This document shows positions 4,719-45,358 of a DNA stretch of 64,000 bases, piece by piece. The DNA lies in NCBI GenBank assembly GCA_023458915.1, contig JAEWWM010000050.1, positions 2,916 through 66,915 on the forward strand, given 5' to 3'. A program made the position numbers and the translations under genes. The stretch is from Bacillota bacterium (GTDB lineage: Bacteria > Bacillota > Clostridia > Oscillospirales > Acutalibacteraceae). The notes under the pieces were generated by a model that was not told where the DNA came from, did not search any database, and saw only the letters and a list, made by a program, of their open reading frames with translations. The first letter of the stretch is position 1, and each line of letters opens with the position of its first letter.

Positions 4719-5564
4719 TTAACTCAGGTTACAAGATTTATTTATAAAAAACGTTACAAAAAATATAACTGAAGATACAAGTACAATCGTTGCTCCCGCG
4801 GAAGAAGCCATGTAGTATGAAATTATAAGTCCAGAGGCACCTGAAAAAACCGAGAATATTATCGAAATCAAATGGTAAGCCCGCATGCTTTTGACTATAT
4901 TTCGTGCCGATGCTGCCGGCAATACAAGAAGAGAATTGATTATTAGCATTCCCACCCATCTTAGCGATACAGTAACAATCAGCGCTATTAAAATAACGAA
5001 TATGTTTTTGTAAAATTTTACATTTATTTGTTTGCTTTTTGCCATGTCGGAATTAAGGCTTGCGAGCATTAATTTGTTAAACGAAAGTATCCAGATTATA
5101 ACAATTAAAAATAGCACAACTGCCAGAATCATAATTTCATTTTGAGTTATTGAAAGTATATCGCCTATTAAATAACCCGAATATTTTGAAAATCCACCTT
5201 TTGCGGAAAGTAGCACGATTCCAAGTGCAATTCCCGCGGAGGAAAATACTCCAATAATTGTATCGGAAGATGAAATTTTAGATTCAATTATGCTTGAAAT
5301 TCCAAGGGCAAAAATAAGTGCAAATCCAAGCATTGAGAGCGCATAATTGTCGGCTCCGAGCATAACACCAATTGCAATTCCCGTAAGTGCGCAGTGTCCC
5401 ATTGCATCTGAAAAAAAAGACATTTTATTGTTAACTATCATGGTCCCAACAAGGCCAAACAGCGGGCTAATCAGTAAAATCGCCAAAAATGCATTTTTCA
5501 TGAAACTAAATTCCATCCAGGAAAAGGGGAGAAGTGATTCTAATGTGGAGTATATTAAATCCAT
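4719..5564 (-). CDS. metal (Zn/Mn) ABC transporter permease, ZnuB/AdcB/TroC-like
   Basis: Polytopic membrane protein of the ABC-3 type. Overlaps the ATPase gene by 10 nt within a three-gene operon. Confidence 0.8.
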   Translation of the reverse strand: MDLIYSTLESLLPFSWMEFSFMKNAFLAILLISPLFGLVGTMIVNNKMSFFSDAMGHCALTGIAIGVMLGADNYALSMLGFALIFALGISSIIESKISSSDTIIGVFSSAGIALGIVLLSAKGGFSKYSGYLIGDILSITQNEIMILAVVLFLIVIIWILSFNKLMLASLNSDMAKSKQINVKFYKNIFVILIALIVTVSLRWVGMLIINSLLVLPAASARNIVKSMRAYHLISIIFSVFSGASGLIISYYMASSAGATIVLVSSVIFFVTFFINKSCNLS

Positions 5565-6301
5565 ATTTTTTCACCTCCGAGAGCTTCTACCCCGAATGTT
5601 TCACGTACTTTTTGGCTTTGCATTAAATCTTTAGCTTGTCCGGTTTCGATAACGGTATGATTTATAAGAACGTAAGATGTGGCATACTTTGCGACATGTC
5701 CAAGATCATGCGAAACCAAAATTACCGGCATATGGTAGTCATCTCGCATGGATTTTATTACGCTATAAAACTGGCTTATTCCTTTGCGGTCAACTGCTGA
5801 TACTGGCTCATCGAGAAGAAGTATATCGGGTGTTGGCTCTAATGCAAACGCCAAAAGCACCCTTTGAAGTTCGCCGCCGGAAAGCTTGCCGATTGGCTTA
5901 TTTATATGTTTTTGTGCTTCGACTTTTTTAAGAATTTCGTGAGCTTTCTCTTTTAATTTTTTGCTATGCCCGAGCCATACGGGCAGATAAGAAGAGTTGG
6001 CACAAAAAAGATCCATAACTGTCATTGGAGTGCCATGGTCAAAACTCAACCTTTGAGGGACATAACCTATTTTAGGGCTTAGAATGCGGTTTCCGTTTGA
6101 ATCGAAAAAATCAATCGTGCCTTTAAAATCTATGCTGTGAAGTATAGATTTTAAAAGTGTTGTCTTTCCGGCTCCGTTTTTGCCAATAAGAGCCAAAGTT
6201 TCCCCGTGGTTAGCACTAAGTGTGACGCGGTTTAAAATTGTGTGCCCACCACGCTTCACCTGCAAATTATTGATTTTTACACTGCAATGGCAATTATCCA
6301 T
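5555..6301 (-). CDS. metal ABC transporter ATP-binding protein, ZnuC/AdcC-like
   Basis: Walker A GKNGAGKTT, signature LSGGELQR, Walker B LLLDEP. Confidence 0.85.
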   Translation of the reverse strand: MDNCHCSVKINNLQVKRGGHTILNRVTLSANHGETLALIGKNGAGKTTLLKSILHSIDFKGTIDFFDSNGNRILSPKIGYVPQRLSFDHGTPMTVMDLFCANSSYLPVWLGHSKKLKEKAHEILKKVEAQKHINKPIGKLSGGELQRVLLAFALEPTPDILLLDEPVSAVDRKGISQFYSVIKSMRDDYHMPVILVSHDLGHVAKYATSYVLINHTVIETGQAKDLMQSQKVRETFGVEALGGEKIWI

Positions 6302-6337
6302 TTTTATTTTAAATTCCTTTGTTTTTAATCTTTATTT

Positions 6338-7234
6338 TTAATTTAGTGCAATTTTCAAAGTTTCAAGATTTTTCTCCATAATATTAATGTAAGCATCTTT
6401 TGATTTCTCACCCGAAGCAGCCGGATCAAGTATATAAATTTTTGCTCTGGTTTCTTTTGAAATAATTTCTGCCGCGGCGCTCGGGTACTGAGGTTCGGTA
6501 AATAAAGCTTTAATCCTCAGTTTTTTTACTATTTCTATTATATTGGTAAGTTCTTTTGCGCTGGGGTTGTTTTCGGGTTCGTGGTTTATAACGCCTGCAA
6601 TATTAAGCCCGAATTCTTTGGCAAAATAGGGGAAAGCTTCGTGAAATGTAACTATATTTTTATTTTTAACATTATCTAAAGCGGAGTGCATTTTGTTTTT
6701 TAGATCATTTAATTTTGCGATGTAAATATCTCTATTTCTTTTATATGCCTCACTGTGCTGCGGATCAACCTTAGAAAGTCCATCGGCAATATTTTCAACC
6801 TGTTTTATATAATTACTTATCGAAACCCATATATGCGGATTATATTCATGATGGCAATTTTCTTCGCAGTCGCAGTCATCGTCTTTAATGAGTTCAATTT
6901 CTGCGCTGGAATCAATTATTTTAATATTCGGAAGTTCATTCATAACTTTATTTAAGAATGATTCCATTCCCGCGCCATTAATTATGAATGCAGAGGATTT
7001 TTCGATTTGTTTTAAATCTTCAGATTTAAGCTGAAAGTCGTGAAGGCATCCGCTGTGGTTTTCCGCCATGCATAGGGCCGTGACGCCATCTATATTATCC
7101 ACCAAATTAAGCGCCGTTATGTAAACGGGATAGCACGACGCCACAAACCGAATCTTATCGGTTTTTTCTTTTTGGCACCCGCATCCAAAAAAGCAAATAA
7201 ATAGCGACAATACCACCACAAAATATTTTTTCAA
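6338..7234 (-). CDS. metal ABC substrate-binding lipoprotein, ZnuA/AdcA/TroA-like
   Basis: Lipobox-like FFGCGC, a TroA-fold pattern (NPHIW, FHEAFPYF) and an acidic Cys/His loop DDDCDCEENCHHEYNPH. TTG start behind GAGG. Confidence 0.8.
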   Translation of the reverse strand: MKKYFVVVLSLFICFFGCGCQKEKTDKIRFVASCYPVYITALNLVDNIDGVTALCMAENHSGCLHDFQLKSEDLKQIEKSSAFIINGAGMESFLNKVMNELPNIKIIDSSAEIELIKDDDCDCEENCHHEYNPHIWVSISNYIKQVENIADGLSKVDPQHSEAYKRNRDIYIAKLNDLKNKMHSALDNVKNKNIVTFHEAFPYFAKEFGLNIAGVINHEPENNPSAKELTNIIEIVKKLRIKALFTEPQYPSAAAEIISKETRAKIYILDPAASGEKSKDAYINIMEKNLETLKIALN

Positions 7235-27483: not shown

Positions 27484-27560
27484 CCGGGTGTGGCGCAGTT
27501 TGGTAGCGCGCTTGAATGGGGTTCAAGAGGCCGCAGGTTCGACTCCTGTCACTCGGACCA
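27484..27560 (+). tRNA. tRNA-Pro (anticodon GGG), CCA encoded
   Basis: Acceptor ccgggtg/cactcgg, D stem gcgc/gcgc, anticodon stem cttga/tcaag with loop auGGGgu, T loop ttcgact. Confidence 0.85.
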
Positions 27561-27597
27561 ATTTAAATCTTTAAGCCTGCTGTTTAGGAGGTAATCT

Positions 27598-28254
27598 ATA
27601 ACTTCATATAAAATTGATACACCAAAATTAAATAATGATCTGATAGAATTTGACAAAAAAGAGCTTGTCGATATTAAAGATGAAGACATTATTTCTAATA
27701 CAAAAATAAAAGATATAGTTTTCTGTAAACAGAGTGCAAATGATATTGAGATTAAAGGCTCTGCGCTCTCTAATGTGAAATTTCAAGAGTGCAACTTTAA
27801 TCGGTTAAGTATCACGGATTGCATATTAAAATAGTGCGATTTTTCGAACATCCAAATGTGTGAGTCAATTTTTTGTAGAGTAGAGCTACAAAATTGCAAA
27901 CTTCTTGGAAGTAATTTTTATGGATCATCCATTTTAAATGTTGTTCTTAATGCATGCATAGCAGATTATTCTATTTTTGCAGAATCCAGATTTAAAAATG
28001 TCGTGATTAAAGACACTTCTCTTAAAAAGGCTGATTTCTACAACGCATCTTTTAACCGAATCCAACTGTTTCGTGTTGCTTTGCATCAAGCTCAGCTATC
28101 TGGCGCTAAGCTAAAAGGGCTGGATTTTAGTGAGTGTAATATAGAAGGAATTGGAATCCGTTTAGAAGATTTGGCGGGAATAACCATTACGCCGCTTCAG
28201 GCTGTAGATATCATCAAATCGCTTGAGACGGGAATAAATATAAAAACTTCATAG
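27598..28254 (+). pseudogene. Qnr/MfpA-type pentapeptide-repeat protein gene with ATA in the start position and an in-frame TAG (27832-27834)
   Basis: AGGAGGT SD sits 5 nt before ATA 27598. 78 sense codons, then TAG, then 139 codons in the same frame (218 in total). Five-residue periodicity runs throughout; the C-terminal LKGLDFSECN...ITITPLQAVDIIKSL resembles Qnr-like proteins. Confidence 0.7.
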
Positions 28255-28567
28255 ACAGTAGCACAAGGATTTATAGGAGAAAACAAATAATTAAAAAATA
28301 ACTAAATTTATTTATAAGCCGAAACTTTACGAATCCAATACAAGCAAAAAAATATACATTTTAGGTAAGCGGCGACTTACTAAATTCAACGGATGTAAGT
28401 TAGAAATTTTTCCTTTATTTTTGAAAAATTTGAACGGCGTTACAATCATCGTGGTGAAGATTTGTTAAAGCTAAAGAAATTGATAAAGTAGCTTATTTTT
28501 AGTAAAATGAGGTTATTAATTTTATGAGATAGGCAAGAGTCTGTGCTATTTTAAATGGAGGTATTTA

Positions 28568-28927
28568 TTGATTTACTTATCCGATTTTACATTCCCTAGC
28601 GAAGATAAGGAAATGAGTTATATCTATTCAATTGGAAGAGAATGCTATAATACGTTTTATCCATTTAAAACATTGTCAGTACGAGATCTTGAAAAAATCG
28701 AATTTGAATCGATTACTATTTTGTACGGAGGAAATGGGTCAGGAAAATCGACGGCACTAAATGTAATGGCAGAAAAAACTAGAATCAGTCGTGATTCAAT
28801 ATATAATAAATCGAATTTCTATTCAGACTATAATGATAAAATAATAACTAGATTTTACTCTCTTAATATTTTTTGTCAATTCTTTTTTGGAATTTTTTTA
28901 CAGAAATTCACAAATTTTGAAATTTAA
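28568..28927 (+). pseudogene. N-terminal fragment of an AAA/ABC-like ATPase
   Basis: GGAGG SD and TTG start. Walker A ILYGGNGSGKST at aa 52-63. After about aa 88 the reading frame becomes low-complexity hydrophobic and ends; no Walker B or signature motif. Confidence 0.55.
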
Positions 28928-29018
28928 TTTTTTATATGAAAAATGTTGAAAAAAATATATTGCTGTTATACTTAAAAAAATTCAAATGTAAATATATGTA
29001 AAAAGGTGGTAGAGTATT

Positions 29019-35964: not shown

Positions 35965-36609
35965 TTAAAAAGTTTCGTCGTTTCCTTTATTATTTAATTT
36001 TTTTCTACATGCTTTACATCTTGCTTTGCCGTCTTCTGATTTCTTTTCTGCCATATGATAGGCTTGTTCGGCTGTATAAGTCTTGCCGCTATGAGTAAAT
36101 CCTTTAAACTCAGCTCCACAATCAGTGCAGTAATATTTTTGATCTTGTATCTGTTCGACTTTTTGCTCAGATTTTTGTTCTGGCAAATCCTCACCGGCGT
36201 AGATGTAAAGTCCTAAACCAAACATTGCTAGATTTTTAACTAGACATCTCATGATTGTCTTATTTATGTCAAACATAGTCGCGGCTTCAACTTTAATGCC
36301 TTTTTTATACTTAGTATCGTAAGTGTAAGGCTCACTTTTCATAGCTTTGTTTGCGCTGTTCATGACGGGAAGCCACATTGTGTGCGTTATACCTTCAATG
36401 GTTACATCCGTAAAAACCATATAGCCAGTATTTTTGTCGTAAACATAGGGAAGCTGCTCCTCGCCAAACAATCTTATTTTGTATTCTGCCGATGGGTATA
36501 TTTTTTTAACTTCTGCCCAAGCATAGGTCCAAGATAAATAAGTGAGACCATCTTTTTTTTCGGTGTAGTTATTAACATTGATTTTAAATAGCTTTTCAAA
36601 AATGTTCAT
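35965..36609 (-). CDS. phage Rad52/Sak-type (DUF1071-like) single-strand annealing protein with C-terminal zinc ribbon
   Basis: LTYLSWTYAWAEVKKIYP, MRCLVKNLAMFGLGLYIYAGEDLP, and a C-terminal CTDC...CKAC ribbon. Confidence 0.7.
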   Translation of the reverse strand: MNIFEKLFKINVNNYTEKKDGLTYLSWTYAWAEVKKIYPSAEYKIRLFGEEQLPYVYDKNTGYMVFTDVTIEGITHTMWLPVMNSANKAMKSEPYTYDTKYKKGIKVEAATMFDINKTIMRCLVKNLAMFGLGLYIYAGEDLPEQKSEQKVEQIQDQKYYCTDCGAEFKGFTHSGKTYTAEQAYHMAEKKSEDGKARCKACRKKLNNKGNDETF

Positions 36610-36827
36610 TGATTTTCCTCCTTACATACAAATGGAATTTTTAGTGCCTAGATGCATTGAGTTTTTTTATTTGCGGCCTTTTGCACTTAAAAACAATAGT
36701 AAGATTCATCTGTGAAAAACAGTATGCTTTCGCTGAAAATAGGTTCACCGCATCTTGGGCAATTATGCATAGCTTTGCTTTTCACTTTATTTAATTTTTA
36801 GCCGTTCTGTTTTTAATAGATATAGTA

Positions 36828-36846
36828 TAGTTGTAAATTACAACTA
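36828..36846. promoter_or_regulatory. 19-bp palindrome (9+1+9), candidate operator upstream of the SdpI-like gene
   Basis: TAGTTGTAA-A-TTACAACTA lies ~50 nt upstream of ATG 36896, next to TATAAT at 36871-36876. Confidence 0.4.
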
Positions 36847-36895
36847 ATAGAATTAAAGATAAAATAGTAGTATAATTAAAGACGGGGGGATTAAA

Positions 36896-37561
36896 ATGAT
36901 TAGTAAAATTTTATTTCCGATTACACTGATAAACTCACTGATAATGGCATGGTTTATAGGGAAAATTGAATATGATATTGTTGCACTTCACTACAATATA
37001 CATGGGAATGCTGATTTTTACGGCAGTAAATGGATGCTGTTGATTTTTGCCGCTATTCCCTTGATCTTATCCTCGATTTTTTGGTTTTACAAAAGTTTTA
37101 CTAAAAACTCAAATAACAAAAAACATAACGATTCAGCTGAAAATAAAATAATATCTGTAATAATAATTTTCTTTATGCTGATTAGCTGGATGATTATTGT
37201 TATAGCTTCAAGCAATACGCAAAGGTTAGGCACTCCGGTGTTGTCCGGTATAGCGGGACTGTTGGGGTTATTAATAATCTCTATAAGTATTTTTATGCCG
37301 CAAATTAAACCAAACAAATTTTTAGGGATCAGAACATCTGCTACTTTAAGAGATGACAGTGTATGGGATAAGACACATAAATTTGGGTTTTACACTGGAA
37401 TTATCGGCGGAATTTTGACTATACTTTTCGCACTGGTTTCTTTAATAACAAATGTGCAATGGCTATGTTTTGCGGGTATTTTCTGTAGTATTGCGGGAGC
37501 AATTATACCTGCAATTTATTCTTATATAATTTATAAAAAACTCAATCATCCACACAATTAA
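36896..37561 (+). CDS. SdpI/YhfL-family membrane protein (DUF1648 + SdpI-like)
   Basis: Six TM helices with HYNIHGNADFYGSKW at the N-terminus and KPNKFLGIRTSATLRDDSVWDKTHKF in the middle. Confidence 0.6.
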   Translation: MISKILFPITLINSLIMAWFIGKIEYDIVALHYNIHGNADFYGSKWMLLIFAAIPLILSSIFWFYKSFTKNSNNKKHNDSAENKIISVIIIFFMLISWMIIVIASSNTQRLGTPVLSGIAGLLGLLIISISIFMPQIKPNKFLGIRTSATLRDDSVWDKTHKFGFYTGIIGGILTILFALVSLITNVQWLCFAGIFCSIAGAIIPAIYSYIIYKKLNHPHN

Positions 37562-37618
37562 AAACGCTTCCAATACTACTGTATATTTTTGAATAGTTTG
37601 AAAAATTTTCAATATATA

Positions 37619-37699
37619 TTATGCATATTTTGCAAATTCATCATCAATTATTTTTTCTATATTTTCATCTAATTTTTTTATGTATTCAATTTTCAGCAT
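37619..37699 (-). pseudogene. 26-codon stub resembling the N-terminus of a GNAT acetyltransferase
   Basis: MLKIEYIKKLDENIEKIIDDEFAKYA then stop. Overlaps the ANT(6) stop codon by 14 nt. Confidence 0.3.
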
Positions 37700-38555
37700 T
37701 AGATTTGCTCCTTAATATTTTCAAATATTTTGTTACACCGTTATCTTCACTTTGGTTGTAGGTGAAACTTAATTTTAAGGCAATCTCTTTAGCTAAAATT
37801 CTGAATAATTCACACGCTTTAAAAACAGCATTCCATAAATTTTCATAGTTGCTGTCTGAGTATGTTTTTTCATACATTTTGTAAAAATTTTCCGGCAAAA
37901 AATCTTTAAAGTATCTTCCAAATGTGCCTGTGGAAACTTTGAAATCGCTATGAAGCCCGATGTACCACTTAACCATTTTTTCAAGTTCCACATGGACGAT
38001 ATCAAACATTCGCATGGCATAAGTGAGTTCATCACGAACGATGCCTTTAGCAACATTTTGAAGGCACCACCAAAATTCATTTTGGCAAGCTTTAAATTTA
38101 TTTTTCGTAGGAGGATTTATCAGAAAATCGCTATCGCTGGATACTATATTCGAGAATTTATTATCTTTATCAAGCAGCACAACTGTTGCGCTATCAAGAT
38201 TTATTGTGTTTAGAAAGTCCATGGTTTCAAATGTCATATCCATCCTGAGTCCACTATTAAACAGCGTAAGGTACGCAAAATGCTGCTCAGGATTATGTGC
38301 ATTATCAAAAAGCTTAGGGTTATCGGGAGTTTGCAAAATGGCAACTTCGCCAAATTTCGCAGCAAATGCATCAAACCAATATTTGTCCAAATATGGCTTA
38401 TTTGAATGCGTAACAAATGCAATATCATAATCGCTCAATTTATCAATTTTTCCGTTTGGATTTGCCCGTGACCCTTCAAGCAACACTGCTCGTATATTTT
38501 CATCTGATTTTGCAAAATTTAAAACGATATTTAATATTTCATTCTTTTTATGCAT
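37686..38555 (-). CDS. aminoglycoside 6-nucleotidyltransferase, ANT(6)/AadK-like
   Basis: ILNIVLNFAKSDENIRAVLLEGSRANPN...DYDIAFVT matches the ANT(6) N-terminal nucleotidyltransferase pattern; length is typical at 289 aa. Confidence 0.75.
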   Translation of the reverse strand: MHKKNEILNIVLNFAKSDENIRAVLLEGSRANPNGKIDKLSDYDIAFVTHSNKPYLDKYWFDAFAAKFGEVAILQTPDNPKLFDNAHNPEQHFAYLTLFNSGLRMDMTFETMDFLNTINLDSATVVLLDKDNKFSNIVSSDSDFLINPPTKNKFKACQNEFWWCLQNVAKGIVRDELTYAMRMFDIVHVELEKMVKWYIGLHSDFKVSTGTFGRYFKDFLPENFYKMYEKTYSDSNYENLWNAVFKACELFRILAKEIALKLSFTYNQSEDNGVTKYLKILRSKSNAEN

Positions 38556-38787
38556 AAGAAGCGTCCACCTCTTTCTGCTGCTTAAAAATACATTTTACTA
38601 TTTATCCATTCGTTAAAAAGGGGAACAAGTGCATTACGGTGGTTATAATAGCAACTTCTTTTAACTATGCTATTATACCACACAATTTCTTTTTCGCTAA
38701 TTTAAGTTAGTGCATATGTTTGGCAAATTTTTATTTTTTAATTTGGAAAAAAGTCTAATAAAAAAATTTTTCAATTAAAATTGGGTG

Positions 38788-39228
38788 CTAAGCAAAATTA
38801 TTAGTATTAGATTGATTAGTAGGGCAAGTGTTATTAGAAATTCCGTTTTGAATTCTATTTAACCCTGCCTCACAGTCGCGAATTCCACTTTCAACATCTT
38901 CAATACCATCATTTATATTATTCCTGCATATTTCACAGCGTCCGCAATTGATATTTCTAAGGGCTTGTGTGCATTGTCTTAATCCGGCACAAATATTACG
39001 ATTTTGCATGCCTGAATTTTGCACTGCTGACCTGATACATGCTAGCCCTTGTGCACATACACAGTTACCGTTTGAGATTTCTGTTGTTCCTCTGCAGATG
39101 TTGTTATTGCGGACTTCATTTAATCCTTGAGTACACTGGCAAAGACCTTGAAGACAAATATTTATACCACGAGTAACCCTTCGATTAAAATTTAAAATAT
39201 TGTTCCCATTACATCTAGAATTACACAT
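38788..39228 (-). CDS. Cys/Asn-rich repeat protein (146 aa, 16 Cys), no family recognised
   Basis: Recurrent NIC-x-GL-x-QCTQ-(G/A)L units (ICLQGLCQCTQGL; VCAQGLACI; ICAGLRQCTQAL; CGRCEIC). AAAGGAG SD. No signal peptide. Confidence 0.65.
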   Translation of the reverse strand: MCNSRCNGNNILNFNRRVTRGINICLQGLCQCTQGLNEVRNNNICRGTTEISNGNCVCAQGLACIRSAVQNSGMQNRNICAGLRQCTQALRNINCGRCEICRNNINDGIEDVESGIRDCEAGLNRIQNGISNNTCPTNQSNTNNFA

Positions 39229-39269
39229 ATAAGCATCGACTCCTTTTTGAGCGAAGAAAAATTCTGTAA
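39199..39269 (-). repeat. inverted-repeat arm A: 5' leader, SD and first 10 codons of the Cys-rich gene
   Basis: About 85% identical (hand alignment: 61 matches, 8 mismatches, 3 gap positions) to 40106..40175 on the opposite strand. Confidence 0.8.
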
Positions 39270-39389
39270 GATTTCAATGTATTATATTCTTTTGCAGCTA
39301 TATATGTGATAAATTCAGCTTGTTTTATTAAAATATTCTAAATTAGTGCGAGTGGTCGGTAAGGGCACTAGGTAAAAATTATGGTGCTG

Positions 39390-40028
39390 TTATTTTTTAT
39401 AATCATCTATCTCCCATGTACCAGACAGCGTTGCAGTCGACGGAGGCACTGAAAGAGCTGGTGAATAAGGCGACGATGAAGACGACAATGGAGAATATGA
39501 TGAAGGTGGAAAGTGTGATGAATTTATTTTTAAAATTAATTGATTTAAAGCATTTTTCTGATTGTATAAAGTCGTAATTAATTTTATAAGGTAATGTTTA
39601 AGGTAATCTTCGCTGTAGCCTTTAATTACAGTATATGCTTCGCAATCAGGTTTAAAAGCTTCAGCAAATCTTTTGTTCCAGTAACCACCATATTTATGCC
39701 AATGACTTTGCGCGGTGACCCAGGCAGCTTTACCGGTGGCTTCCTTAACGATTTCCCAGCTGTAAGTAAGATTGGCACAGCAATAGGCGTCGCCGGCGTC
39801 GTATGCGGCGTTCATAGCGGTGTCATGAATGTCAAAATATTCTTTAAATAAACTAGGCAACAGCTTAATTAGCTTTTCGTTTTTAGCTTGTGTTGTCTTC
39901 TTTTCAAGTGTTGCAGAAACATTTATAAGTGTTGCAGAAACATTTGTAAACGAAGCACCTGACATTCCAATTAGCGCTGACACTACGCATAATAATACCT
40001 TTTTATTCAAAATGCTAAATCTTTTCAT
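39390..40028 (-). CDS. secreted protein carrying a third, diverged copy of the Trp/Ala-rich module plus a Ser/Pro-rich tail
   Basis: Signal peptide containing an 18-bp tandem duplication (NVSATLINVSATL). Motifs LIKLLPS, AAYDAGDAY, AAWVTAQSHW, EAYTVIKGY and YLIKLITTLYNQKNALNQLI follow the module order of 34328..35608. Confidence 0.65.
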   Translation of the reverse strand: MKRFSILNKKVLLCVVSALIGMSGASFTNVSATLINVSATLEKKTTQAKNEKLIKLLPSLFKEYFDIHDTAMNAAYDAGDAYCCANLTYSWEIVKEATGKAAWVTAQSHWHKYGGYWNKRFAEAFKPDCEAYTVIKGYSEDYLKHYLIKLITTLYNQKNALNQLILKINSSHFPPSSYSPLSSSSSPYSPALSVPPSTATLSGTWEIDDYKK

Positions 40029-40105
40029 AATTTTTTTATACTCCCATTAATTAAATGTTTTATTATATGCTTATTTAATATATCATAATAATATATTTTT
40101 AACAA

Positions 40106-40175
40106 TTATAGAATTTTTTCGCACAAAAAGGGGTCAATTCTTATTATGTGTAATTCTAAATGTAATGGAAACAAT
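40106..40175 (+). repeat. inverted-repeat arm B: 5' leader, SD and first 10 codons of the beta-lactamase-like gene
   Basis: Partner of 39199..39269. Both genes begin MCNS(R/K)CNGNN. Confidence 0.8.
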
Positions 40176-40961
40176 TTTATTCTACAAATTTTAATTTCAT
40201 TAATTTTAACTGTTTATATTTTTGCTTTAACGGGTTGTAAGACTTCATCTTCAAATGAAACAGAAGTAGATCTGTCAAGCTTTTTTAGCGAAAAAGAAGG
40301 TTGCGCTGTATTTTGTAAAGATAATCATTTTTATGTATACAAAAAAGATATGATTAACGTTCAGGAATCTCCATGTTCTACTTTTAAAATCTTTCTAACC
40401 TTGGCTGGCCTGAAGTTTGGCGTACTAAAAGACGAAAACACCATGATTAAGTGGGATGGCATAAAAAGAGATTTTGAATTTTGGAATAAAGATTTAACAT
40501 TAAAGGAAGCATTCAGTTTATCTGCTGGGTGGTGGTTTAGAAAAGTTGCAAATGATATAGGTAAAGAAAAATTATCTTATCTTGTAAATGAACTTTCTTA
40601 TGGTAATTGTGACACATCCGGAGAAATACCTTTTTGGGTAGATTCCTCGATCAAAATTTCGCCAAAAGAACAAGTTGAATTTATTAAAAAGATTTTTAAT
40701 TATGAACTGCATTCATTTTCCAGGGAGCATGTAGAAATATTAAAAACTGCTATGCAAAAAGGGATTATAAATGGCGGTAAGTTATATGGAAAAACCGGAA
40801 GCAGCAGCACCAACAAAAACGGTTGGTTTGTTGGTGCTTACGAAAAAGGCGGCAAATATCTGTTTTGTGCAGTTAGATTATTTAGTGGGCAAGAAATTTC
40901 TGGCTCTACCGCTGAAAAAATATTAAGAAATATTATTGAAATTAAATATTCACAAATATAA
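40146..40961 (+). CDS. class D (OXA-type) beta-lactamase-like lipoprotein
   Basis: STFK, SAG (at the SxV position), YGN, KTG and WFVG motifs in OXA order. WDG...W.KDLTL and QVEFIKK parallel OXA-10. Lipobox ALTGC. Confidence 0.8.
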   Translation: MCNSKCNGNNFILQILISLILTVYIFALTGCKTSSSNETEVDLSSFFSEKEGCAVFCKDNHFYVYKKDMINVQESPCSTFKIFLTLAGLKFGVLKDENTMIKWDGIKRDFEFWNKDLTLKEAFSLSAGWWFRKVANDIGKEKLSYLVNELSYGNCDTSGEIPFWVDSSIKISPKEQVEFIKKIFNYELHSFSREHVEILKTAMQKGIINGGKLYGKTGSSSTNKNGWFVGAYEKGGKYLFCAVRLFSGQEISGSTAEKILRNIIEIKYSQI

Positions 40962-42387: not shown

Positions 42388-42396
42388 TTAAGTCAT

Positions 42397-42794
42397 GAGT
42401 AGACTAAGTAATCGCGTACTGCGCCTCATGGCAAAGTATGAGGAAAGTCCGAGCTCCATAGAGCAGGTTAACGGCTAACAGCCGCCGAGGGCAACCTCAG
42501 GGAAAGTGCAACAGAAATATACCGCCCGAAATTTATTTTTAGTGATTTTTTTCTCTTTCTATAAGAAGAAAATCCAGAATAATTACTTTTTCGGGTAAGG
42601 ATGGAAAGGCGAGGTAAGAGCTCACCAGCGCGTAGGAGACTACGCGGCTATGCAAACCCTAACCGGAGCAACACCGTTTGGTATGAAATATGCGCCTGCT
42701 CGGCGCTTCTTTAAGGTGGCAATGAGCCAGCAGCGGCAACGCTTGGCCAAGATAGATGATTACTCACGACAGAATTCGGCTTATCGGTCTACTC
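42397..42794 (+). ncRNA. rnpB: RNase P RNA
   Basis: P1 pairing gagtagac/gtctactc. Universally conserved GAGGAAAGTCCG (P4 5' strand) and ACAGAAttCGGCTTA (P4 3' strand). ~398 nt with an AT-rich peripheral hairpin (cccgaaa...tttcggg). Confidence 0.88.
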
Positions 42795-42885
42795 TTTTAT
42801 TATAGAAAACATTTATTTAATTGATCAGTTTTGTAAGTATATTAAAGAAAGTACCATAAAATGGTATAAATTTAGGTGTAAATTT

Positions 42886-43737
42886 ATGATAAAAAGACTA
42901 GTAAATGTATTTTTAAGCTTTATTATGATGCTTTTTGGCTGTGGTCCTGCGGGTAAAATTCAGCGCGTAGAAATTTCGAATGGTTTGGTTAACACTTTTG
43001 TTATTGGAAATGGCAGCAAAACTATTGTAATGCTTAGTGGCTGCGCCACCGAAAATCCTATAGAAGATTTTATGCCTCTTGCTCGAAAATTAAGCAAAAA
43101 TTTCAAAGTGGTTGTAATAGAATATTTTGGCTATGGAGCAAGCGATATAGTGTTTAACGAAAGATCAAGTGAAAACATTGTTGGTGAAATAAGAGAGACA
43201 TTAGCTAAGCTCAAAATAAAACCACCGTACATTCTTATGCCGCATTCAATTTCAGGAATTTATTCACGTAAGTATGCAAAGGAATATCCGAATGAGGTTG
43301 AAGCAATTATTGGAATAGACACTTCAAAGCCAAATGCTCAAAAAGAATTTTATGAATCAAACGAAAGATTAATAAAATATTTTTCCGAAGATTTTTTCCC
43401 AAAAATTTCAGATAAAGGTAAAATCACAGTGCCGATTTTTAATGAAGCTAATATGTTTTACAAAAATAGTGAAGAATTTTTTGATGTTAAATATCCTGAA
43501 AATTTACCGGTCTTATCTTTCATTTCCAGCGAATCAATTAAGTCAACGAAACTCGAAAAAAGTTTGATAAACTTAAACAAAATAACGGATTGAGATAAAT
43601 TTGAACAAAATATGATTTCTAATCCTGAAATTCAAAAAATAGAAATTTTAGAAGGTTCGCACTACTTGCATCACGAGCAAGCAGATAAAATCAAAGAGTT
43701 GACAACTGAATTTATAAATAATATTAAAAATAGATAG
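42886..43737 (+). pseudogene. alpha/beta hydrolase interrupted by an in-frame TGA (43591-43593)
   Basis: N-terminal signal/lipobox-like FGCG and nucleophile-elbow-like PHSISG. After the TGA the same frame continues for 47 codons through EGSHYLHHEQ, the position of the catalytic His. Confidence 0.65.
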
Positions 43738-43773
43738 TGAAATAATAAACTGTTTTTTGAGTTTTAGTAATAC

Positions 43774-43802
43774 TTGACATATTATTTTAATTTTTATAAA
43801 AT
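43774..43802 (+). promoter_or_regulatory. near-consensus promoter for the double-glycine peptide gene
   Basis: TTGACA, 17-nt spacer, TAAAAT. Confidence 0.6.
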
Positions 43803-43845
43803 TATTGCACAAAATAATTATAAAATACAAAAGGAGGAACAAAAC

Positions 43846-44079
43846 ATGGAAATTAATGAAAAAAGTCTTAATGAGGTAGCAGGCGGAAAAATTGTAGAAA
43901 CTAAAGGTGGAAAATTTTTAGCAGTACCACACTGGGTAAAAGAATATGCAACAGAAGAAGAGGCAAAAAAAGAACATTGTGGTAAAGGCCATGGTCATCA
44001 TCATAAAGGAGACGGTAAATGTAGCCCGGGCTGCGATATGAAACCTGCAGTTGAAACACCCCCAATTCCGAAAGTTTAA
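43846..44079 (+). CDS. double-glycine-leader peptide precursor (77 aa) with charged, His/Cys-rich core
   Basis: AAGGAGG SD. Leader MEINEKSLNEVAGG has hydrophobic residues at -4, -7 and -12 relative to GG. Core contains HCGKGHGHHHKGDGKCSPGCD. Confidence 0.65.
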   Translation: MEINEKSLNEVAGGKIVETKGGKFLAVPHWVKEYATEEEAKKEHCGKGHGHHHKGDGKCSPGCDMKPAVETPPIPKV

Positions 44080-44098
44080 AAGTGCAGACACTTAAAAT

Positions 44099-44134
44099 AA
44101 AAACTACTGAGTTTTTTATACTCAGTAGTTTTTT
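44099..44134. terminator. bidirectional terminator between the peptide gene and def
   Basis: 11-bp perfect stem aaactactgag/ctcagtagttt, flanked by A- and T-runs. Confidence 0.8.
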
Positions 44135-44168
44135 CATATAATTCTTAACATCTTATTAGTTATGAATT

Positions 44169-44606
44169 TTAAGCTATGCGAGATTTAAGAAGTATTCCGT
44201 CTAAATGGTCATTTTCATGGTGAAAAGCTCTGGCTTTTAATTTTTTGCCAGAATATTGTATCGCTTCACCTTTTCTATTTTGCCCTTTAATTGTCACAAA
44301 CATAGGTCTTGTGACTTTATAAAATTGTCCTGGAAGAGATAAGCAACCTTCCTCATCCTTTTGTTCGCCGCTTGTTTCTACTATTACAGGGTTAACAAGT
44401 TCTATATCTCCGTCGCCTACATTAACAACAAAAATACGCTTTGAAACGCCAATTTGCGGTGCCGCAAGCCCAACCCCTTGGTTTGATTTCATTGTTTCGA
44501 ACATATCATCAATTAATATGCTGAGACTTTCATCAAAAATTTCAACCTCCCGGCATTTTTTGTAAAGTATAGACTCGCCTTCTTTTACTATGCTTCTAAC
44601 TGCCAT
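44169..44606 (-). CDS. def: peptide deformylase
   Basis: GVGLAAPQIG, EGCLSLPG, HENDHLDG. Confidence 0.93.
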   Translation of the reverse strand: MAVRSIVKEGESILYKKCREVEIFDESLSILIDDMFETMKSNQGVGLAAPQIGVSKRIFVVNVGDGDIELVNPVIVETSGEQKDEEGCLSLPGQFYKVTRPMFVTIKGQNRKGEAIQYSGKKLKARAFHHENDHLDGILLKSRIA

Positions 44607-44657
44607 CGCATTTCACCTCTCTTTAACTTCTAAAAGTAAATAACCTAATAATATTTT

Positions 44658-45077
44658 TTAATCGTCAAATTCTGTAAAATCGTCTTCTTCGCTTTCTTTT
44701 ACAGTGTTAGTACAGCAATTGGATAGTTTTGCACCACATTTTGTACAATAAGAAGAGCCTTCCTCGTTTTGATTACCGCAAGATTCACATAATACTTTAT
44801 TTTTCATGGAAGCAATTTGCTTTTTTAACCCCTCCATTTGAATATAATAATTATCTATCTGAGCTATCGAGGCGTTAATTTCTGCCTTATTTTCCGTGCT
44901 ATTTTTTTCGCCGTTATAAACAGTTTTTCCTAAATTTTCAAATTCCGATTTAAGATCTGCCTTGAGTTCCGCAAGTTTTATGTTCAATTTTGAAACATCC
45001 ACAACCTGGCCGGCTTTTTCGCCAAGCGCGTCAACCGCTGCTTTAACTTTAACAAAAAGATCTTCGAACACTCCCAT
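44658..45077 (-). CDS. coiled-coil protein with C-terminal zinc ribbon
   Basis: CESCGN...CTKCGAKL. Start set at ATG 45077, 7 nt after GGAGGA. Confidence 0.6.
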   Translation of the reverse strand: MGVFEDLFVKVKAAVDALGEKAGQVVDVSKLNIKLAELKADLKSEFENLGKTVYNGEKNSTENKAEINASIAQIDNYYIQMEGLKKQIASMKNKVLCESCGNQNEEGSSYCTKCGAKLSNCCTNTVKESEEDDFTEFDD

Positions 45078-45358
45078 TACATCATCCTCCAAATTCTATT
45101 TTTCATATATTATAACTAAAAAATATTAAAATTACAAATGTTTGTATAAATTCACTTTTGAACCTTATTCCCAAATCAAATGCTGTATAATTCTATTTTA
45201 TGACTAAAAAATAATTTTTGCCATAATTTTGGCTTCATTTTTCGAGCAGTTACTTTGTAATGTTTTGGTATCTTTTTCTTCCGACGTACAGGGGGAGGAA
45301 AAGATAAAATAATTATTTAAACAATATTCTTCAATATTTTTTGTCTTTTCAGCTAATT

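What the first reader, a model, noticed from the sequence alone, without database searches (positions are those of the whole stretch)
43774..44134. Orphan double-glycine-leader peptide with a charged His/Cys-rich 63-aa cargo
This is a self-contained unit with a near-consensus promoter, an AAGGAGG SD and a perfect terminator. The leader MEINEKSLNEVAGG fits the double-glycine leader logic (LS..EL..I.GG, with hydrophobic residues at -4, -7 and -12). The cargo KIVETKGGKFLAVPHWVKEYATEEEAKKEHCGKGHGHHHKGDGKCSPGCDMKPAVETPPIPKV is hydrophilic and metal-ligand-rich (H5, C3), unlike class II bacteriocins. No C39-peptidase ABC exporter, immunity gene or modification enzyme lies in the window.
Basis: partly seen in the sequence, partly recalled or inferred. 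Interest (0 to 1): 0.65.

Follow-up and report, generated by a model that had tools for sequence, protein, structure and literature searches.

The report
Orphan double-glycine-leader small protein family
This is a real, strongly expressed 77-residue gene from a previously unnamed family of gut Clostridia small proteins that carry a bacteriocin-type "double-glycine" export leader, a tiny conserved folded module and a fast-evolving histidine-rich tail; it is probably cut and exported by a transporter encoded elsewhere, but that has not been shown.

Summary
The unit is real. It has a TTGACA-17-TAAAAT promoter, an AAGGAGG SD, a CDS at 43846-44079 (77 aa) and a -20 kcal/mol bidirectional terminator shared with convergent def. 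No Pfam, NCBIfam, PHROG or PADLOC model matches.

Exhaustive HMMER and profile searches found a small family of about 60 clusters, all "hypothetical", in host-associated Oscillospirales/Clostridia MAGs. One is a 1.28-Mb protist endosymbiont.

Family architecture:
- Leader: G-1 and G-2 in 44/44 members, V-4 in 38/44, L-7 in 39/44, L/V/I-12 in 38/43. This is the PCAT recognition pattern.
- Module: a conserved ~32-aa beta-hairpin plus helix (K[IV]VETK[DE]GKF...F.T.EEA).
- Tail: hypervariable and disordered, rich in His, Pro, Gly and Lys.

The leader is the most constrained part (dN/dS 0-0.06). In related genomes the same leader heads unrelated cargos in tandem arrays of 4-12 genes, so it behaves as a portable module.

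No C39-ABC exporter, immunity gene or maturase lies in the window or within 10 kb of any of ~16 homologous loci. Export in trans is therefore inferred, not shown.

Best reading (0.55): a PCAT-type substrate with a non-bacteriocin cargo, comparable to CtA or MAM. Main rival (0.2): a cytoplasmic mini-protein. This is a new member of a known kind, of moderate interest.

The parts
43774..43802 (+). sigma-A-type promoter: -35 TTGACA (43774-43779), 17-nt spacer, -10 TAAAAT (43797-43802)
   Evidence: One search gives 11/12 matches, the best site in the region. Equivalent TTGACA-17-TAtAAT promoters lie upstream of homologues in L008, L009, L011, L015-L020.
43831..43837 (+). Shine-Dalgarno AAGGAGG, 8 nt upstream of the ATG
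   Evidence: Nearly all homologues inspected have AAGGAGG, AAAGGAG or GGAGG at the same distance.
43846..44079 (+). CDS of the 77-aa pre-protein, including the TAA stop at 44077-44079
   Evidence: The identical protein is called on 9 other contigs. Homologues appear.
43846..43887 (+). Double-glycine leader MEINEKSLNEVAGG (residues 1-14: I-12, L-7, V-4, G-2, G-1). The predicted cleavage site is after Gly14.
   Evidence: Leader position profile from 44 members. AF2 predicts a helix at residues 5-11, which are positions -10 to -4. The PCAT1-CtA consensus is in PMC6959990. dN/dS is 0-0.06 in close pairs. Cleavage is inferred.
43888..43983 (+). Conserved mini-domain, residues 15-46 (KIVETKGGKFLAVPHWVKEYATEEEAKKEHCG): a beta-hairpin (14-18, 24-28) plus a helix (37-46). 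E18, K20 and G22 are invariant.
   Evidence: Alignments A1-A3. AF2 pLDDT is about 80 over residues 11-40. A domain-only profile retrieves only other GG-leader small proteins.
43984..44076 (+). Hypervariable, predicted-disordered tail, residues 47-77 (KGHGHHHKGDGKCSPGCDMKPAVETPPIPKV), rich in His, Gly, Pro, Lys and Cys
   Evidence: AF2 pLDDT is below 50. Family tails contain H 10.2%, P 11.9% and G 9.5%, against 1.6%, 3.3% and 6.1% in the window's long ORFs. Tail dN/dS is 0.3-1.0. Weak low-complexity hits go to HpnL, the SlyD tail and the RcnA loop.
44099..44133 (.). Bidirectional intrinsic terminator (14-bp perfect stem, 7-nt loop, A-run upstream and T-run downstream), shared with convergent def (44169-44606, minus strand)
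   Evidence: One search gives dG -20.2 kcal/mol and z = -5.64.

Best explanation
The gene encodes the precursor of a small exported protein from an unannotated family found in host-associated Oscillospirales and other Clostridia.

Shown:
- It is a monocistronic unit with a near-consensus sigma-A promoter, a strong SD and a strong terminator.
- The product has three parts: a 14-aa double-glycine leader, a conserved ~32-aa beta-hairpin plus helix module, and a hypervariable disordered tail rich in His, Pro, Gly, Lys and Cys.
- The leader is the most strongly constrained part. In related genomes it is reused in front of unrelated cargos.

Inferred:
- The leader helix (positions -10 to -4, with I-12, L-7 and V-4) docks on the C39 cysteine-peptidase domain of a PCAT-type ABC exporter encoded elsewhere in the genome.
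- The peptidase cuts after Gly14, and the 63-aa, 6.9-kDa hydrophilic cargo is threaded out.
- Outside the cell the small module folds or oligomerises. The His/Cys-rich tail binds divalent metal ions or anionic surfaces, in a histatin- or Hpn-like manner.
- The function is therefore not membrane-active killing. A surface-associated, metal-binding or inter-cellular role is more likely, by analogy with the non-bacteriocin PCAT cargos CtA and MAM.
For: 1. Leader pattern across 44 members: G-1 44/44, G-2 44/44, A/S at -3, V-4 38/44, L-7 39/44, L/V/I-12 38/43. All other positions are hydrophilic and variable. This equals the L(-12)xxxE(-8)L(-7)xxxxGG consensus. In the PCAT1-CtA cryo-EM structure -7 and -12 form the 'hydrophobic knot' and -4 gives specificity (PMC6959990).
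2. AF2 places a helix at residues 5-11, which are positions -10 to -4. The leader helix occupies the same positions in that structure.
3. The only NCBIfam and Pfam similarities of family N-termini are to GG-leader models: TIGR01847, CTB bacteriocin, VP1 pheromone, cerein 7B, lactococcin G-beta, plantaricin C, ComC and Bacteriocin_IIc. All map to residues 1-~20 and all are sub-threshold.
4. The leader is modular.
   - L018, L016 and L015 carry 12, 9 and 7 tandem genes with the same M(K/E)KELK..EL..(V/I)(S/A)GG leader but at least 4 unrelated cargo types.
   - L009 and L020 carry three family genes plus a fourth GG-leader gene that lacks the module.
   - Some ORFs carry a second, internal leader between two cargo modules.
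5. Leader dN/dS is 0.00-0.06 despite many synonymous changes. The module is about 0.1 and the tail 0.3-1.0.
6. Related genomes hold other orphan GG-leader peptides, for example a Nif11-leader, Gly-rich bacteriocin-like gene 4.5 kb away in L011 and L014.
7. The clade containing one host (Ca. Paraimprobicoccus, L013) is reported to have acquired an 'NHLM bacteriocin system secretion protein' (PMC10579323 Table S13). That protein belongs to the three-gene cassette containing a peptidase-ABC transporter (PMC2887384).
8. There are precedents for PCAT cargos of this size and non-bacteriocin nature: CtA with a 24-aa leader and 66-aa cargo, and MAM in Faecalibacterium.
9. A domain-only profile finds the module essentially only behind GG leaders.
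Against: - No C39 peptidase or ABC exporter was found in the 64-kb window or within about 10 kb of any of ~16 non-redundant homologous loci in 9 genomic contexts. CtA and MAM are linked to or strictly co-occur with their PCAT.
- Presence of a PCAT in this genome could not be tested.
- The window peptide matches no curated leader HMM even at E <= 10. It has Ser rather than Glu at -8, and its 14-aa leader is at the short end of the known range.
- The residues just after GG are highly conserved and predicted to be folded, which is unusual for a cargo N-terminus.
- 14 of 44 members give weak hits to the Arm DNA-binding domain (best E 0.01).
- The gene is retained in a 1.28-Mb endosymbiont genome and sits in stable housekeeping synteny next to def, relA and recJ. 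That would also suit a cytoplasmic housekeeping role.
- Metal binding by the tail is inferred from composition only, and fewer than half of the tails are His-rich.
Confidence: 0.55

Rival explanations
1. It is a cytoplasmic mini-protein that is never cleaved. The N-terminal amphipathic helix, the GG turn and the beta-hairpin plus helix form one small alpha-beta-beta-alpha fold that binds nucleic acid or a protein partner. The His/Cys tail would act as an intracellular metal-binding or chaperone segment, for example for neighbouring metalloenzymes such as peptide deformylase.
For: - 14 of 44 members give weak Arm-DNA-bind_4 hits, and a few hit SpoVG or DUF2188. The window peptide gives MvaT/U at E 0.16.
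- No exporter lies near any of ~16 loci.
- There is stable synteny, convergent with def, in four lineages.
- The gene is retained in a 1.28-Mb endosymbiont genome.
- A strong constitutive sigma-A promoter is present throughout the family.
- The tails weakly resemble cytoplasmic Ni/Zn-binding tails such as HpnL and SlyD.
Against: - The same leader heads cargos that lack the module altogether. The leader also recurs internally between modules.
- Leader length varies from 11 to 20 aa, while only -1, -2, -4, -7 and -12 are fixed. That fits a recognition signal, not a packed helix.
- AF2 confidence for residues 1-10 is low, about 52.
- All Arm-like hits are below threshold. The PDB profile search finds no integrase arm domain; its best hit is a designed mini-protein. 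Foldseek finds nothing.
- def adjacency holds in only one of 9 contexts, and the two genes are convergent.
Confidence: 0.2
2. It is a RiPP precursor. The conserved first ~46 residues (GG motif plus module) are a long leader or recognition region. The variable His/Cys/Pro-rich tail is the core peptide, modified by a maturase encoded elsewhere (radical-SAM thioether formation, HxS-type or another Cys/His chemistry) before GG-dependent export.
For: - The family has the RiPP-like pattern of a conserved N-terminus and a hypervariable C-terminus.
- Cys pairs recur in many tails, as CxxC or C-x3-C.
- There is a weak HxsA4 hit at E 2.5e-4 in P0032, and weak GRASP_targ_2 hits.
- Tandem arrays resemble precursor arrays. 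Long NHLP/Nif11-type leaders ending in GG are a precedent, with precursors often far from the enzymes (PMC2887384).
- Double-leader ORFs show the module lying upstream of a second GG site.
Against: - No radical-SAM, LanM, YcaO, ATP-grasp or other maturase appears in the window or in any annotated flank.
- Many tails have no Cys and no recurring core motif.
- The GG site lies before the conserved module, not after it, so GG cleavage would not release the tail alone.
- The HxsA and graspetide hits are low-complexity or leader-only and far below the cut-offs.
Confidence: 0.1
3. It is a conventional GG-leader product: a class II bacteriocin or a ComC/BlpC-type quorum-sensing pheromone.
For: - The leader is of GG type.
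- There are sub-threshold hits to Bacteriocin_IIc, ComC, VP1 pheromone and cerein 7B models.
- Variable multigene arrays resemble blp-like loci. One fused ORF in L018 ends in a cationic amphipathic peptide.
Against: - The cargo is strongly hydrophilic (GRAVY -0.93), has no Gly-rich or hydrophobic membrane-active segment, and is 63 aa long.
- No immunity gene, histidine kinase/response regulator pair or exporter lies adjacent in the window or in most loci.
- The promoter is a constitutive consensus type, not an inducible one.
- The hits cover the leader only.
Confidence: 0.1

Closest known systems
CtA, the natural substrate of PCAT1 (Acetivibrio/Clostridium thermocellum)
   Same: Both are small hydrophilic clostridial proteins with an N-terminal GG leader that has hydrophobic residues at -12, -7 and -4, and a leader helix at -10 to -4. 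The cargos are nearly the same size (66 vs 63 aa), largely unstructured and of unknown function (PMC6959990).
   Different: CtA has a 24-aa leader and is encoded in the same operon as its transporter. This gene has a 14-aa leader and no transporter within 64 kb. No sequence similarity to any PDB chain, CtA included, was detected. The cargo here begins with a conserved folded module.
MAM (Microbial Anti-inflammatory Molecule) of Faecalibacterium
   Same: Both come from Oscillospirales. Both are very strongly expressed non-bacteriocin proteins with an I/V-12 ... V-4 GG leader proposed to be cut and exported by a PCAT (PMC12184118). The window gene has a consensus sigma-A promoter and a strong SD.
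   Different: MAM is 135 aa with a hydrophobic, lattice-forming cargo and strictly co-occurs with a PCAT gene. This family is 58-105 aa, hydrophilic, with a hypervariable tail, and no linked PCAT has been seen. There is no sequence homology.
Class II bacteriocins and peptide pheromones with double-glycine leaders (Pfam Bacteriocin_IIc, ComC; NCBIfam TIGR01847, cerein 7B, lactococcin G-beta, VP1)
   Same: The leader logic is the same, and weak sub-threshold HMM similarity is confined to the leader. Relatives occur in variable tandem arrays.
   Different: The cargo is hydrophilic and His/Lys/Pro-rich, with no amphipathic or Gly-rich membrane-active segment. No immunity gene, kinase or exporter neighbours were found. 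No model reaches its cut-off.
NHLP / Nif11-leader natural-product precursors (TIGR03793, TIGR03798) with the NHLM transport cassette (TIGR03794/6/7)
   Same: Cleavage is at GG. There are many paralogous precursors per genome, often remote from the transport genes. The N-terminal part is conserved and the C-terminal part hypervariable (PMC2887384). A true Nif11-leader peptide lies near a family member in L011 and L014. An NHLM secretion protein is reported for the clade of one host.
   Different: The leader here is short (14 aa) and unrelated to NHase or Nif11. The conserved module lies after the GG, not before it. No TOMM or lanthipeptide enzymes were seen.
His-rich metal-binding peptides (Hpn/HpnL, SlyD C-terminal tail, histatins)
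   Same: The tail composition is similar (HGHHH, CxxxC). Weak low-complexity hits of family tails go to HpnL, the SlyD tail and the RcnA loop. His is 10.2% in family tails against 1.6% background.
   Different: These are compositional resemblances only. His-richness is present in about 20 of 44 tails. Hpn and SlyD are cytoplasmic. Metal binding was not tested.

Membership tests
Double-glycine-leader (PCAT/AMS) substrates | Gly-Gly at -2/-1, conserved among homologues | tested here: met
   G13 and G14 are invariant in 17, 44 and 44 aligned members.
Double-glycine-leader (PCAT/AMS) substrates | Hydrophobic residues at -4, -7 and -12 (consensus L-12 xxx E-8 L-7 xxxx GG, PMC6959990) | tested here: met
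   V-4 38/44, L-7 39/44, L/V/I-12 38/43. The window has I-12, L-7 and V-4. Acidic -8 occurs in only 20/44, and the window has Ser.
Double-glycine-leader (PCAT/AMS) substrates | Leader forms a short helix over positions -10 to -4 | tested here: met
   AF2 predicts a helix at residues 5-11, which are -10 to -4. pLDDT is only about 52-72 there.
Double-glycine-leader (PCAT/AMS) substrates | Match to a curated leader model (TIGR01847 and relatives) above its cut-off | tested here: not met
   The window peptide has no leader-family hit at E <= 10. Relatives give sub-threshold hits only, for example TIGR01847 at 13.1 bits against a 15.7 cut-off, and all lie on residues 1-~20.
Double-glycine-leader (PCAT/AMS) substrates | Leader is a portable module found on different cargos | tested here: met
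   Arrays in L015, L016, L018, L009 and L020 have the same leader on at least 4 cargo types, and some ORFs have internal second leaders.
Double-glycine-leader (PCAT/AMS) substrates | Cognate C39-peptidase ABC transporter adjacent to the gene | tested here: not met
   None was found in the 64-kb window or within about 10 kb of ~16 homologous loci.
Double-glycine-leader (PCAT/AMS) substrates | C39 peptidase or PCAT present somewhere in the same genome | not testable with these tools
   Only the window is available, and the species is not among the genome contigs representatives. The one indirect clue is an NHLM secretion protein reported for the clade of one host.
Double-glycine-leader (PCAT/AMS) substrates | Cleavage after GG and export of the cargo | not testable with these tools
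   This needs proteomics or biochemistry.
Class II bacteriocins (e.g. Pfam PF10439 Bacteriocin_IIc) | Small cationic, amphiphilic or hydrophobic membrane-active mature peptide, with a model match | tested here: not met
   Cargo GRAVY is -0.93 and net charge about +2, with no hydrophobic segment. There is no Pfam hit for the window peptide. Three of 44 relatives hit PF10439 at E >= 0.19, on the leader only.
Class II bacteriocins (e.g. Pfam PF10439 Bacteriocin_IIc) | Adjacent immunity gene and/or dedicated transporter | tested here: not met
   The neighbours are a split alpha/beta hydrolase, def, a Zn-ribbon protein, relA and recJ.
RiPP precursors (sacti-/ranthi-/lanthipeptides, graspetides, Hxs) | Co-located maturase (radical SAM/SPASM, LanM/LanBC, ATP-grasp, YcaO) | tested here: not met
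   None was found in the scanned window ORFs or in the annotated flanks. The GRASP_targ_2 and HxsA4 hits are far below their cut-offs.
Arm-type DNA-binding domain (Pfam PF14657 Arm-DNA-bind_4) | HMM match above the gathering threshold; three-stranded sheet plus helix | tested here: not met
   The window peptide has no hit. 14 of 44 relatives hit only at E >= 0.01. AF2 shows two strands plus a helix. There are no integrase hits in PDB profile or Foldseek searches.
NHLP / Nif11 leader peptides (TIGR03793/TIGR03798) | Long (~70-80 aa) leader homologous to NHase alpha or Nif11, ending in GG | tested here: not met
   The leader is 14 aa and there is no NCBIfam hit. A genuine Nif11-type peptide is a separate gene in L011 and L014.

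The most novel reading that the evidence does not exclude
The family may be a lineage-specific repertoire of exported modular mini-proteins in small-genome, host- or protist-associated Oscillospirales. In this reading a portable GG leader delivers a ~30-residue self-folding beta-beta-alpha scaffold that displays rapidly diversifying His/Cys/Pro-rich tails. The tails would act as metal-scavenging or host- and competitor-directed effectors. Multi-leader ORFs would be polyproteins cut at internal GG sites. The exporter would always be unlinked and serve a whole dispersed regulon of GG cargos. That would make PCAT export a general small-protein secretion route in these bacteria rather than a bacteriocin accessory.
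Probability: 0.2. Interest if true: 0.7.

Novelty: new member of a known kind. Interest (0 to 1): 0.45.

Why it matters
Double-glycine leaders are usually read as flags for bacteriocins or pheromones sitting next to their transporter. This family suggests that gut and endosymbiotic Oscillospirales use the same leader on strongly expressed, hydrophilic, non-bacteriocin mini-proteins scattered through housekeeping regions.

- These genes are invisible to Pfam, NCBIfam and cluster-based genome mining.
- If export is confirmed, it would add a third example, after CtA and MAM, of PCATs acting as general small-protein secretion systems in Clostridia.
- It would define a new conserved ~30-residue module and point to secreted His-rich peptides as possible players in metal competition or host interaction in a poorly known clade.
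- It would also give annotators a concrete new family model.

If the cytoplasmic rival is right, the lesson is instead that the GG-leader pattern can be mimicked by a structural motif.

Tried and rejected
- Pfam, NCBIfam, PHROGs and PADLOC scans of the peptide gave no family.
- The first word-indexed search found only a 99% identical strain variant. The exhaustive HMMER search was needed to find the family. Three of its hits (P0007, P0011, P0013) were repetitive or low-complexity false positives and were dropped.
- PDB sequence and profile searches gave no homologue. The best hit is a de novo designed mini-protein, which is a compositional match and not homology.
- The AF2 model was searched with Foldseek against PDB, and nothing scored below E ~1.
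- Rfam on the whole window found nothing at the locus, so a riboswitch or sRNA reading is rejected.
- The genome-contig scan with the 44-sequence alignment failed because the alignment was too diverse. It was repeated with 17 sequences. The window's own species is not among the representatives, so a genome-wide PCAT search was impossible.
- The metagenome-contig scan returned only 3 short contigs with no context.
- A regex for ABC exporters in all loci found only UvrA.
- Literature searches for the sequence motif and for a described family found nothing.
- The second 'GG' (G21 G22) was considered as an alternative cleavage site. It is rejected because relatives have D/E-G there and a strain variant has C-G.
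- Functional coupling with def was considered. It is rejected as general because adjacency occurs in only one of 9 contexts and the genes are convergent.
- A BMC-type encapsulation peptide was considered, because 'MEINEK...' recalls the PduD N-terminus (from memory). It is rejected because GG invariance and the multi-cargo arrays fit a GG leader, and no microcompartment genes were seen.
Full report
OBSERVATION

The region 43774-44134 holds a compact, self-contained gene.
- Promoter: -35 TTGACA (43774-43779), a 17-nt spacer and -10 TAAAAT (43797-43802). It scores 11/12 and is the best promoter-like site in 43000-45200.
- SD: AAGGAGG (43831-43837) lies 8 nt before the ATG at 43846.
- CDS: it ends at TAA 44077-44079 and encodes 77 aa.
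- Terminator: a perfect 14-bp hairpin at 44099-44133, dG -20.2 kcal/mol, z = -5.6 against shuffles. A and T runs flank it on both sides, so it also terminates the convergent peptide deformylase gene (44169-44606, minus strand).
- Start codon: the mechanical ORF list begins at the TTG inside the -35 box. The ATG is the real start, because every homologue begins there.
- Cargo: the predicted 63-aa cargo has 6 His (5 in the 44-53 cluster) and 3 Cys. GRAVY is -0.93, pI 8.5, mass 6871 Da.
- Rfam finds nothing at the locus.

IS IT A REAL GENE?

- The identical protein is called on nine other metagenome contigs, always in the same context. A strain variant differs by G21C.
- An exhaustive HMMER search of 1.84 billion representatives found 17 true homologues at E < 1e-3. 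Profile searches raised this to about 60 clusters. All are 42-105 aa, all are 'hypothetical', and none has a Pfam domain.
- In close pairs, Nei-Gojobori dN/dS is 0.00-0.06 for the leader. It is about 0.1 for the next 32 codons, with one pair at 1.0 on few sites. It is 0.3-1.0 for the tail. The counts are small but the direction is consistent. This is a coding sequence whose N-terminus is its most constrained part.

ANATOMY OF THE FAMILY

1. Leader, 11-20 aa.
   - G-1 and G-2 are invariant (44/44) and -3 is A or S.
   - V-4 is present in 38/44, L-7 in 39/44 and L/V/I-12 in 38/43.
   - Every other position is hydrophilic and variable.
2. Conserved module, about 32 aa.
   - The consensus is K[IV][IV]E[TS]K[DE]GK[FWY][IL]x[VL]Pxxx[KE]F.T.EEA.K.E, with E18, K20 and G22 invariant.
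   - AlphaFold2 with the 44-sequence alignment gives a helix at 5-11, strands at 14-18 and 24-28, and a helix at 37-46. pLDDT is about 80 over residues 11-40.
3. Tail, 8-57 aa.
   - It does not align between subfamilies and is predicted to be disordered (pLDDT < 50).
   - It contains His 10.2%, Pro 11.9%, Gly 9.5% and Lys 13%. The window's long ORFs contain 1.6%, 3.3%, 6.1% and 9.1%.
   - About 20 of 44 tails have at least 3 His, and several have Cys pairs.
   - The window's HCGKGHGHHHKGDGKCSPGCD is one instance of this variable tail.
   - The second 'GG' in the window protein is a D/E to G change at a turn, not a family feature.

WHY THE N-TERMINUS IS READ AS A DOUBLE-GLYCINE LEADER

- The conserved positions are exactly those of the published consensus L(-12)xxxE(-8)L(-7)xxxxG(-2)G(-1).
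- In the PCAT1-CtA cryo-EM structure, positions -10 to -4 form a short helix. Residues -7 and -12 form a 'hydrophobic knot' with the C39 domain, and -4 sets specificity (PMC6959990). The AF2 helix at residues 5-11 corresponds to -10 to -4.
- Scans of all 44 members against NCBIfam and Pfam give only sub-threshold hits. Those on the N-terminus go to GG-leader families: TIGR01847 (13.1 bits against a 15.7 cut-off in P0022), CTB bacteriocin, VP1 pheromone, cerein 7B, lactococcin G-beta, plantaricin C, ComC and Bacteriocin_IIc. All map to residues 1-~20.
- The window peptide itself hits none of these models. Membership by curated model is therefore not met.

The strongest argument is modularity.
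- Three related Hadza-gut MAGs carry tandem arrays of 7, 9 and 12 small genes between addAB and spoIIE (L015, L016, L018).
- All of these genes start with M(K/E)KELK..EL..(V/I)(S/A)GG but carry at least four unrelated cargo types.
- L009 and L020 have three family genes followed by a fourth GG-leader gene whose cargo lacks the module.
- Some ORFs contain a second, internal leader (...LLDDLHIEEITPELDKVTGG) between two cargo modules.
- A structural helix belonging to one fold would not be reused in this way.

CONTEXT

The window is chromosomal housekeeping DNA of a low-GC (~34%) Clostridia genome. Around the gene the order is:
- RNase P RNA
- a split alpha/beta hydrolase
- the peptide gene
- def, a Zn-ribbon protein, relA, recJ and an ABC-2 transporter, all on the opposite strand
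- uvrB and uvrA

The arrangement with the peptide gene convergent to def is conserved in at least four lineages: the window, L008, L023, and L024 with two tandem copies.

Other subfamilies sit in other places:
- next to a sigG-like gene
- between an NTP-transferase gene and tsaD
- after addAB
- between dnaD/dnaI-like genes and asnB
- in the complete 1.28-Mb genome of the protist endosymbiont Ca. Paraimprobicoccus trichonymphae

Nearly all inspected homologues carry TTGACA-17-TAtAAT promoters and strong SDs. This suggests high constitutive expression.

No C39 peptidase, ABC exporter, immunity-like gene, sensor kinase pair or RiPP maturase was found in the window. About 38 of the 48 ORFs of at least 150 aa were scanned against Pfam, and all ORFs of at least 450 aa were checked with an ABC-exporter regex. 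None was found within about 10 kb of ~16 non-redundant loci either.

The family is thus consistently 'orphan'. This is the main weakness of the export hypothesis.

There are partial counter-arguments.
- Related genomes also hold other orphan GG peptides, such as a Nif11-leader, Gly-rich bacteriocin-like gene in L011 and L014.
- NHLP/Nif11 systems are known to have many precursors per genome (PMC2887384).
- An 'NHLM bacteriocin system secretion protein' is listed among genes acquired by the ancestor of the small-genome Acutalibacteraceae clade that includes the Paraimprobicoccus host (PMC10579323 Table S13).

MECHANISM

Shown:
- a monocistronic unit with strong expression signals
- a tripartite product
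- a leader pattern that is conserved, constrained and modular

Inferred:
- The leader docks on the C39 domain of a PCAT encoded elsewhere.
- It is cleaved after Gly14, and the 63-aa hydrophilic cargo is exported.
- The mini-module folds or oligomerises outside the cell.
- The His/Cys-rich tail binds metal or anionic surfaces.

The tail inference rests on composition and on weak low-complexity hits to HpnL, the SlyD tail and the RcnA loop.

PCAT transmembrane domains do not read the cargo, so a hydrophilic 63-mer is a plausible substrate. CtA (24 + 66 aa) and Faecalibacterium MAM are precedents for non-bacteriocin cargos in Clostridia and Oscillospirales.

I put this at 0.55.

RIVALS

(a) A cytoplasmic, uncleaved mini-protein that binds nucleic acid, a protein partner or metal (0.2).
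- For: 14 of 44 members give weak Arm-DNA-bind_4 hits (best E 0.01). No exporter is linked. The synteny is with housekeeping genes. The gene is retained in a reduced endosymbiont genome.
- Against: the modularity of the leader. All hits are below threshold. PDB and Foldseek searches show no integrase-arm or other significant match. The best PDB hit is a designed 40-residue mini-protein (5up5). That only suggests the module has the sequence character of a minimal stable fold.

(b) A RiPP precursor whose variable tail is the core (0.1).
- For: the conserved-N, variable-C pattern and the recurring Cys pairs.
- Against: no maturase was found anywhere, and the GG lies before the conserved module, not after it.

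(c) An ordinary class II bacteriocin or pheromone (0.1).
- For: the GG-type leader and the blp-like variable arrays.
- Against: the cargo chemistry, the absence of immunity or kinase genes, and the constitutive promoter.

A non-gene is excluded.

COMPARISON AND NOVELTY

In how it works, this is closest to the GG-leader/PCAT substrates CtA and MAM. As for membership:
- Met: GG invariance, hydrophobic residues at -4, -7 and -12, the leader helix and leader portability.
- Not met: a curated-model match and an adjacent transporter.
- Not testable here: genome-wide PCAT presence, cleavage and export.

It is not a member of any Pfam, NCBIfam, PHROG or PADLOC family. No paper in the searchable library prints its motif.

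I classify it as a new member, with a new cargo family, of a known kind.

Interest is moderate (0.45). It is a clean, conserved, unannotated family with an unusual architecture and a consistently unlinked transporter, in a little-studied clade. Its key functional claims remain untested.

The most novel reading not excluded is the following. PCAT export would serve as a general small-protein secretion route, delivering a self-folding scaffold with diversifying metal-binding or effector tails. Multi-leader polyproteins would be cut at internal GG sites. I give this a probability of about 0.2.

Noticed in passing
window 42886-43737 (+), stop at 43591-43593: An alpha/beta-hydrolase gene just upstream is split by one in-frame TGA (…NKITD*DKFEQNMISNPEIQK…; the C-terminal piece carries the GSHYLHHEQ motif). 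The same TGA is present in other strains' contigs (L001, L006). One gene caller read through it and called a 267-aa product. It could be a pseudogene, a read-through event or a caller artefact.
   Followed up: partly
L018 9625-13389; L016 9659-12295; L015 9668-11958; also L031, L032, L033, L025: Tandem arrays of 4-12 small GG-leader genes lie between addAB and a lipoprotein/spoIIE region in related gut MAGs. Gene number and cargo types differ between closely related strains, which points to a fast birth-and-death multigene family.
   Followed up: partly
L018 11317-11766 and 11782-12165; L016 11831-12295: ORFs with two GG leaders: N-terminal leader, beta-beta-alpha module, helical linker, internal 'LLxDLxxEEITxELxKxxGG', then a second cargo. 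In one case the second cargo is a Lys-rich amphipathic peptide, KVKHYSKFKRGALKAVLGVHKFGSGVKNKFKFYFGKATGKKHK. These may be gene fusions or polyproteins.
   Followed up: no
L011 14799-15116 (same gene in L014): An orphan Nif11-type long-leader peptide ending ...ELDEASLDAVSGG|SGFWGKLGKTLGITLGATADVVGSAAL (Gly-rich, bacteriocin-like) lies between polA and a Toprim gene, 4.5 kb from the family member. It also has no transporter nearby.
   Followed up: no
L009 10618-10785 (also L010, L020): The fourth gene of a family array has a GG leader (MKFNPMKLDNDDLEKVTGG) but an unrelated acidic, His-rich cargo (LEGHEHENMF...HEHHDLRLDRE) without the conserved module. The array lies next to a sigG-like sigma factor gene.
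   Followed up: partly
window 27484-40961: A probable integrated element or island begins at a tRNA (27484-27557). It holds a GH25 lysozyme with LysM (33349-34152), a Sak single-strand annealing protein (35965-36609), an SdpI-like protein (36896-37561), an ANT(6)-type streptomycin adenylyltransferase (37686-38555) and a 271-aa transpeptidase-fold protein resembling class D beta-lactamase or BlaR (40146-40961). Several ORFs there have no Pfam match.
   Followed up: partly
window 42396-42799 (+): Bacterial RNase P RNA class A (265 bits) fills the apparent intergenic gap upstream of the hydrolase gene.
   Followed up: yes
window 4719-7234 (-): A ZnuABC-type zinc/manganese ABC uptake operon (ZnuA, ABC_tran, ABC-3) lies 37 kb from the His/Cys-rich peptide gene. 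No link between them was shown.
   Followed up: no
L008 10834-11688; L023 1073-1903; L024 1452-2282: Relatives have a sortase gene between def and the Zn-ribbon gene in the otherwise syntenic block. The window lacks it.
   Followed up: no
P0001 vs window residue 21 (codon 43906-43908): A strain variant of the peptide carries G21C in the hairpin turn, which adds a fourth Cys. Most other family members have D or E at this position.
   Followed up: partly
window 39390-40028 (-): A 212-aa ORF has an N-terminal signal-like segment, a short direct repeat (INVSATL twice) and a Ser/Pro-rich C-terminus. It has no Pfam match.
   Followed up: no
family module (window residues 15-46): The best PDB profile hit is the de novo designed mini-protein EHEE_rd1_0284 (5up5; 'QEFDNEEEARKAEKELR', 'ENGRWRVTWD'), E 5.6e-4. 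This is convergent 'ideal mini-protein' sequence character rather than homology.
   Followed up: partly
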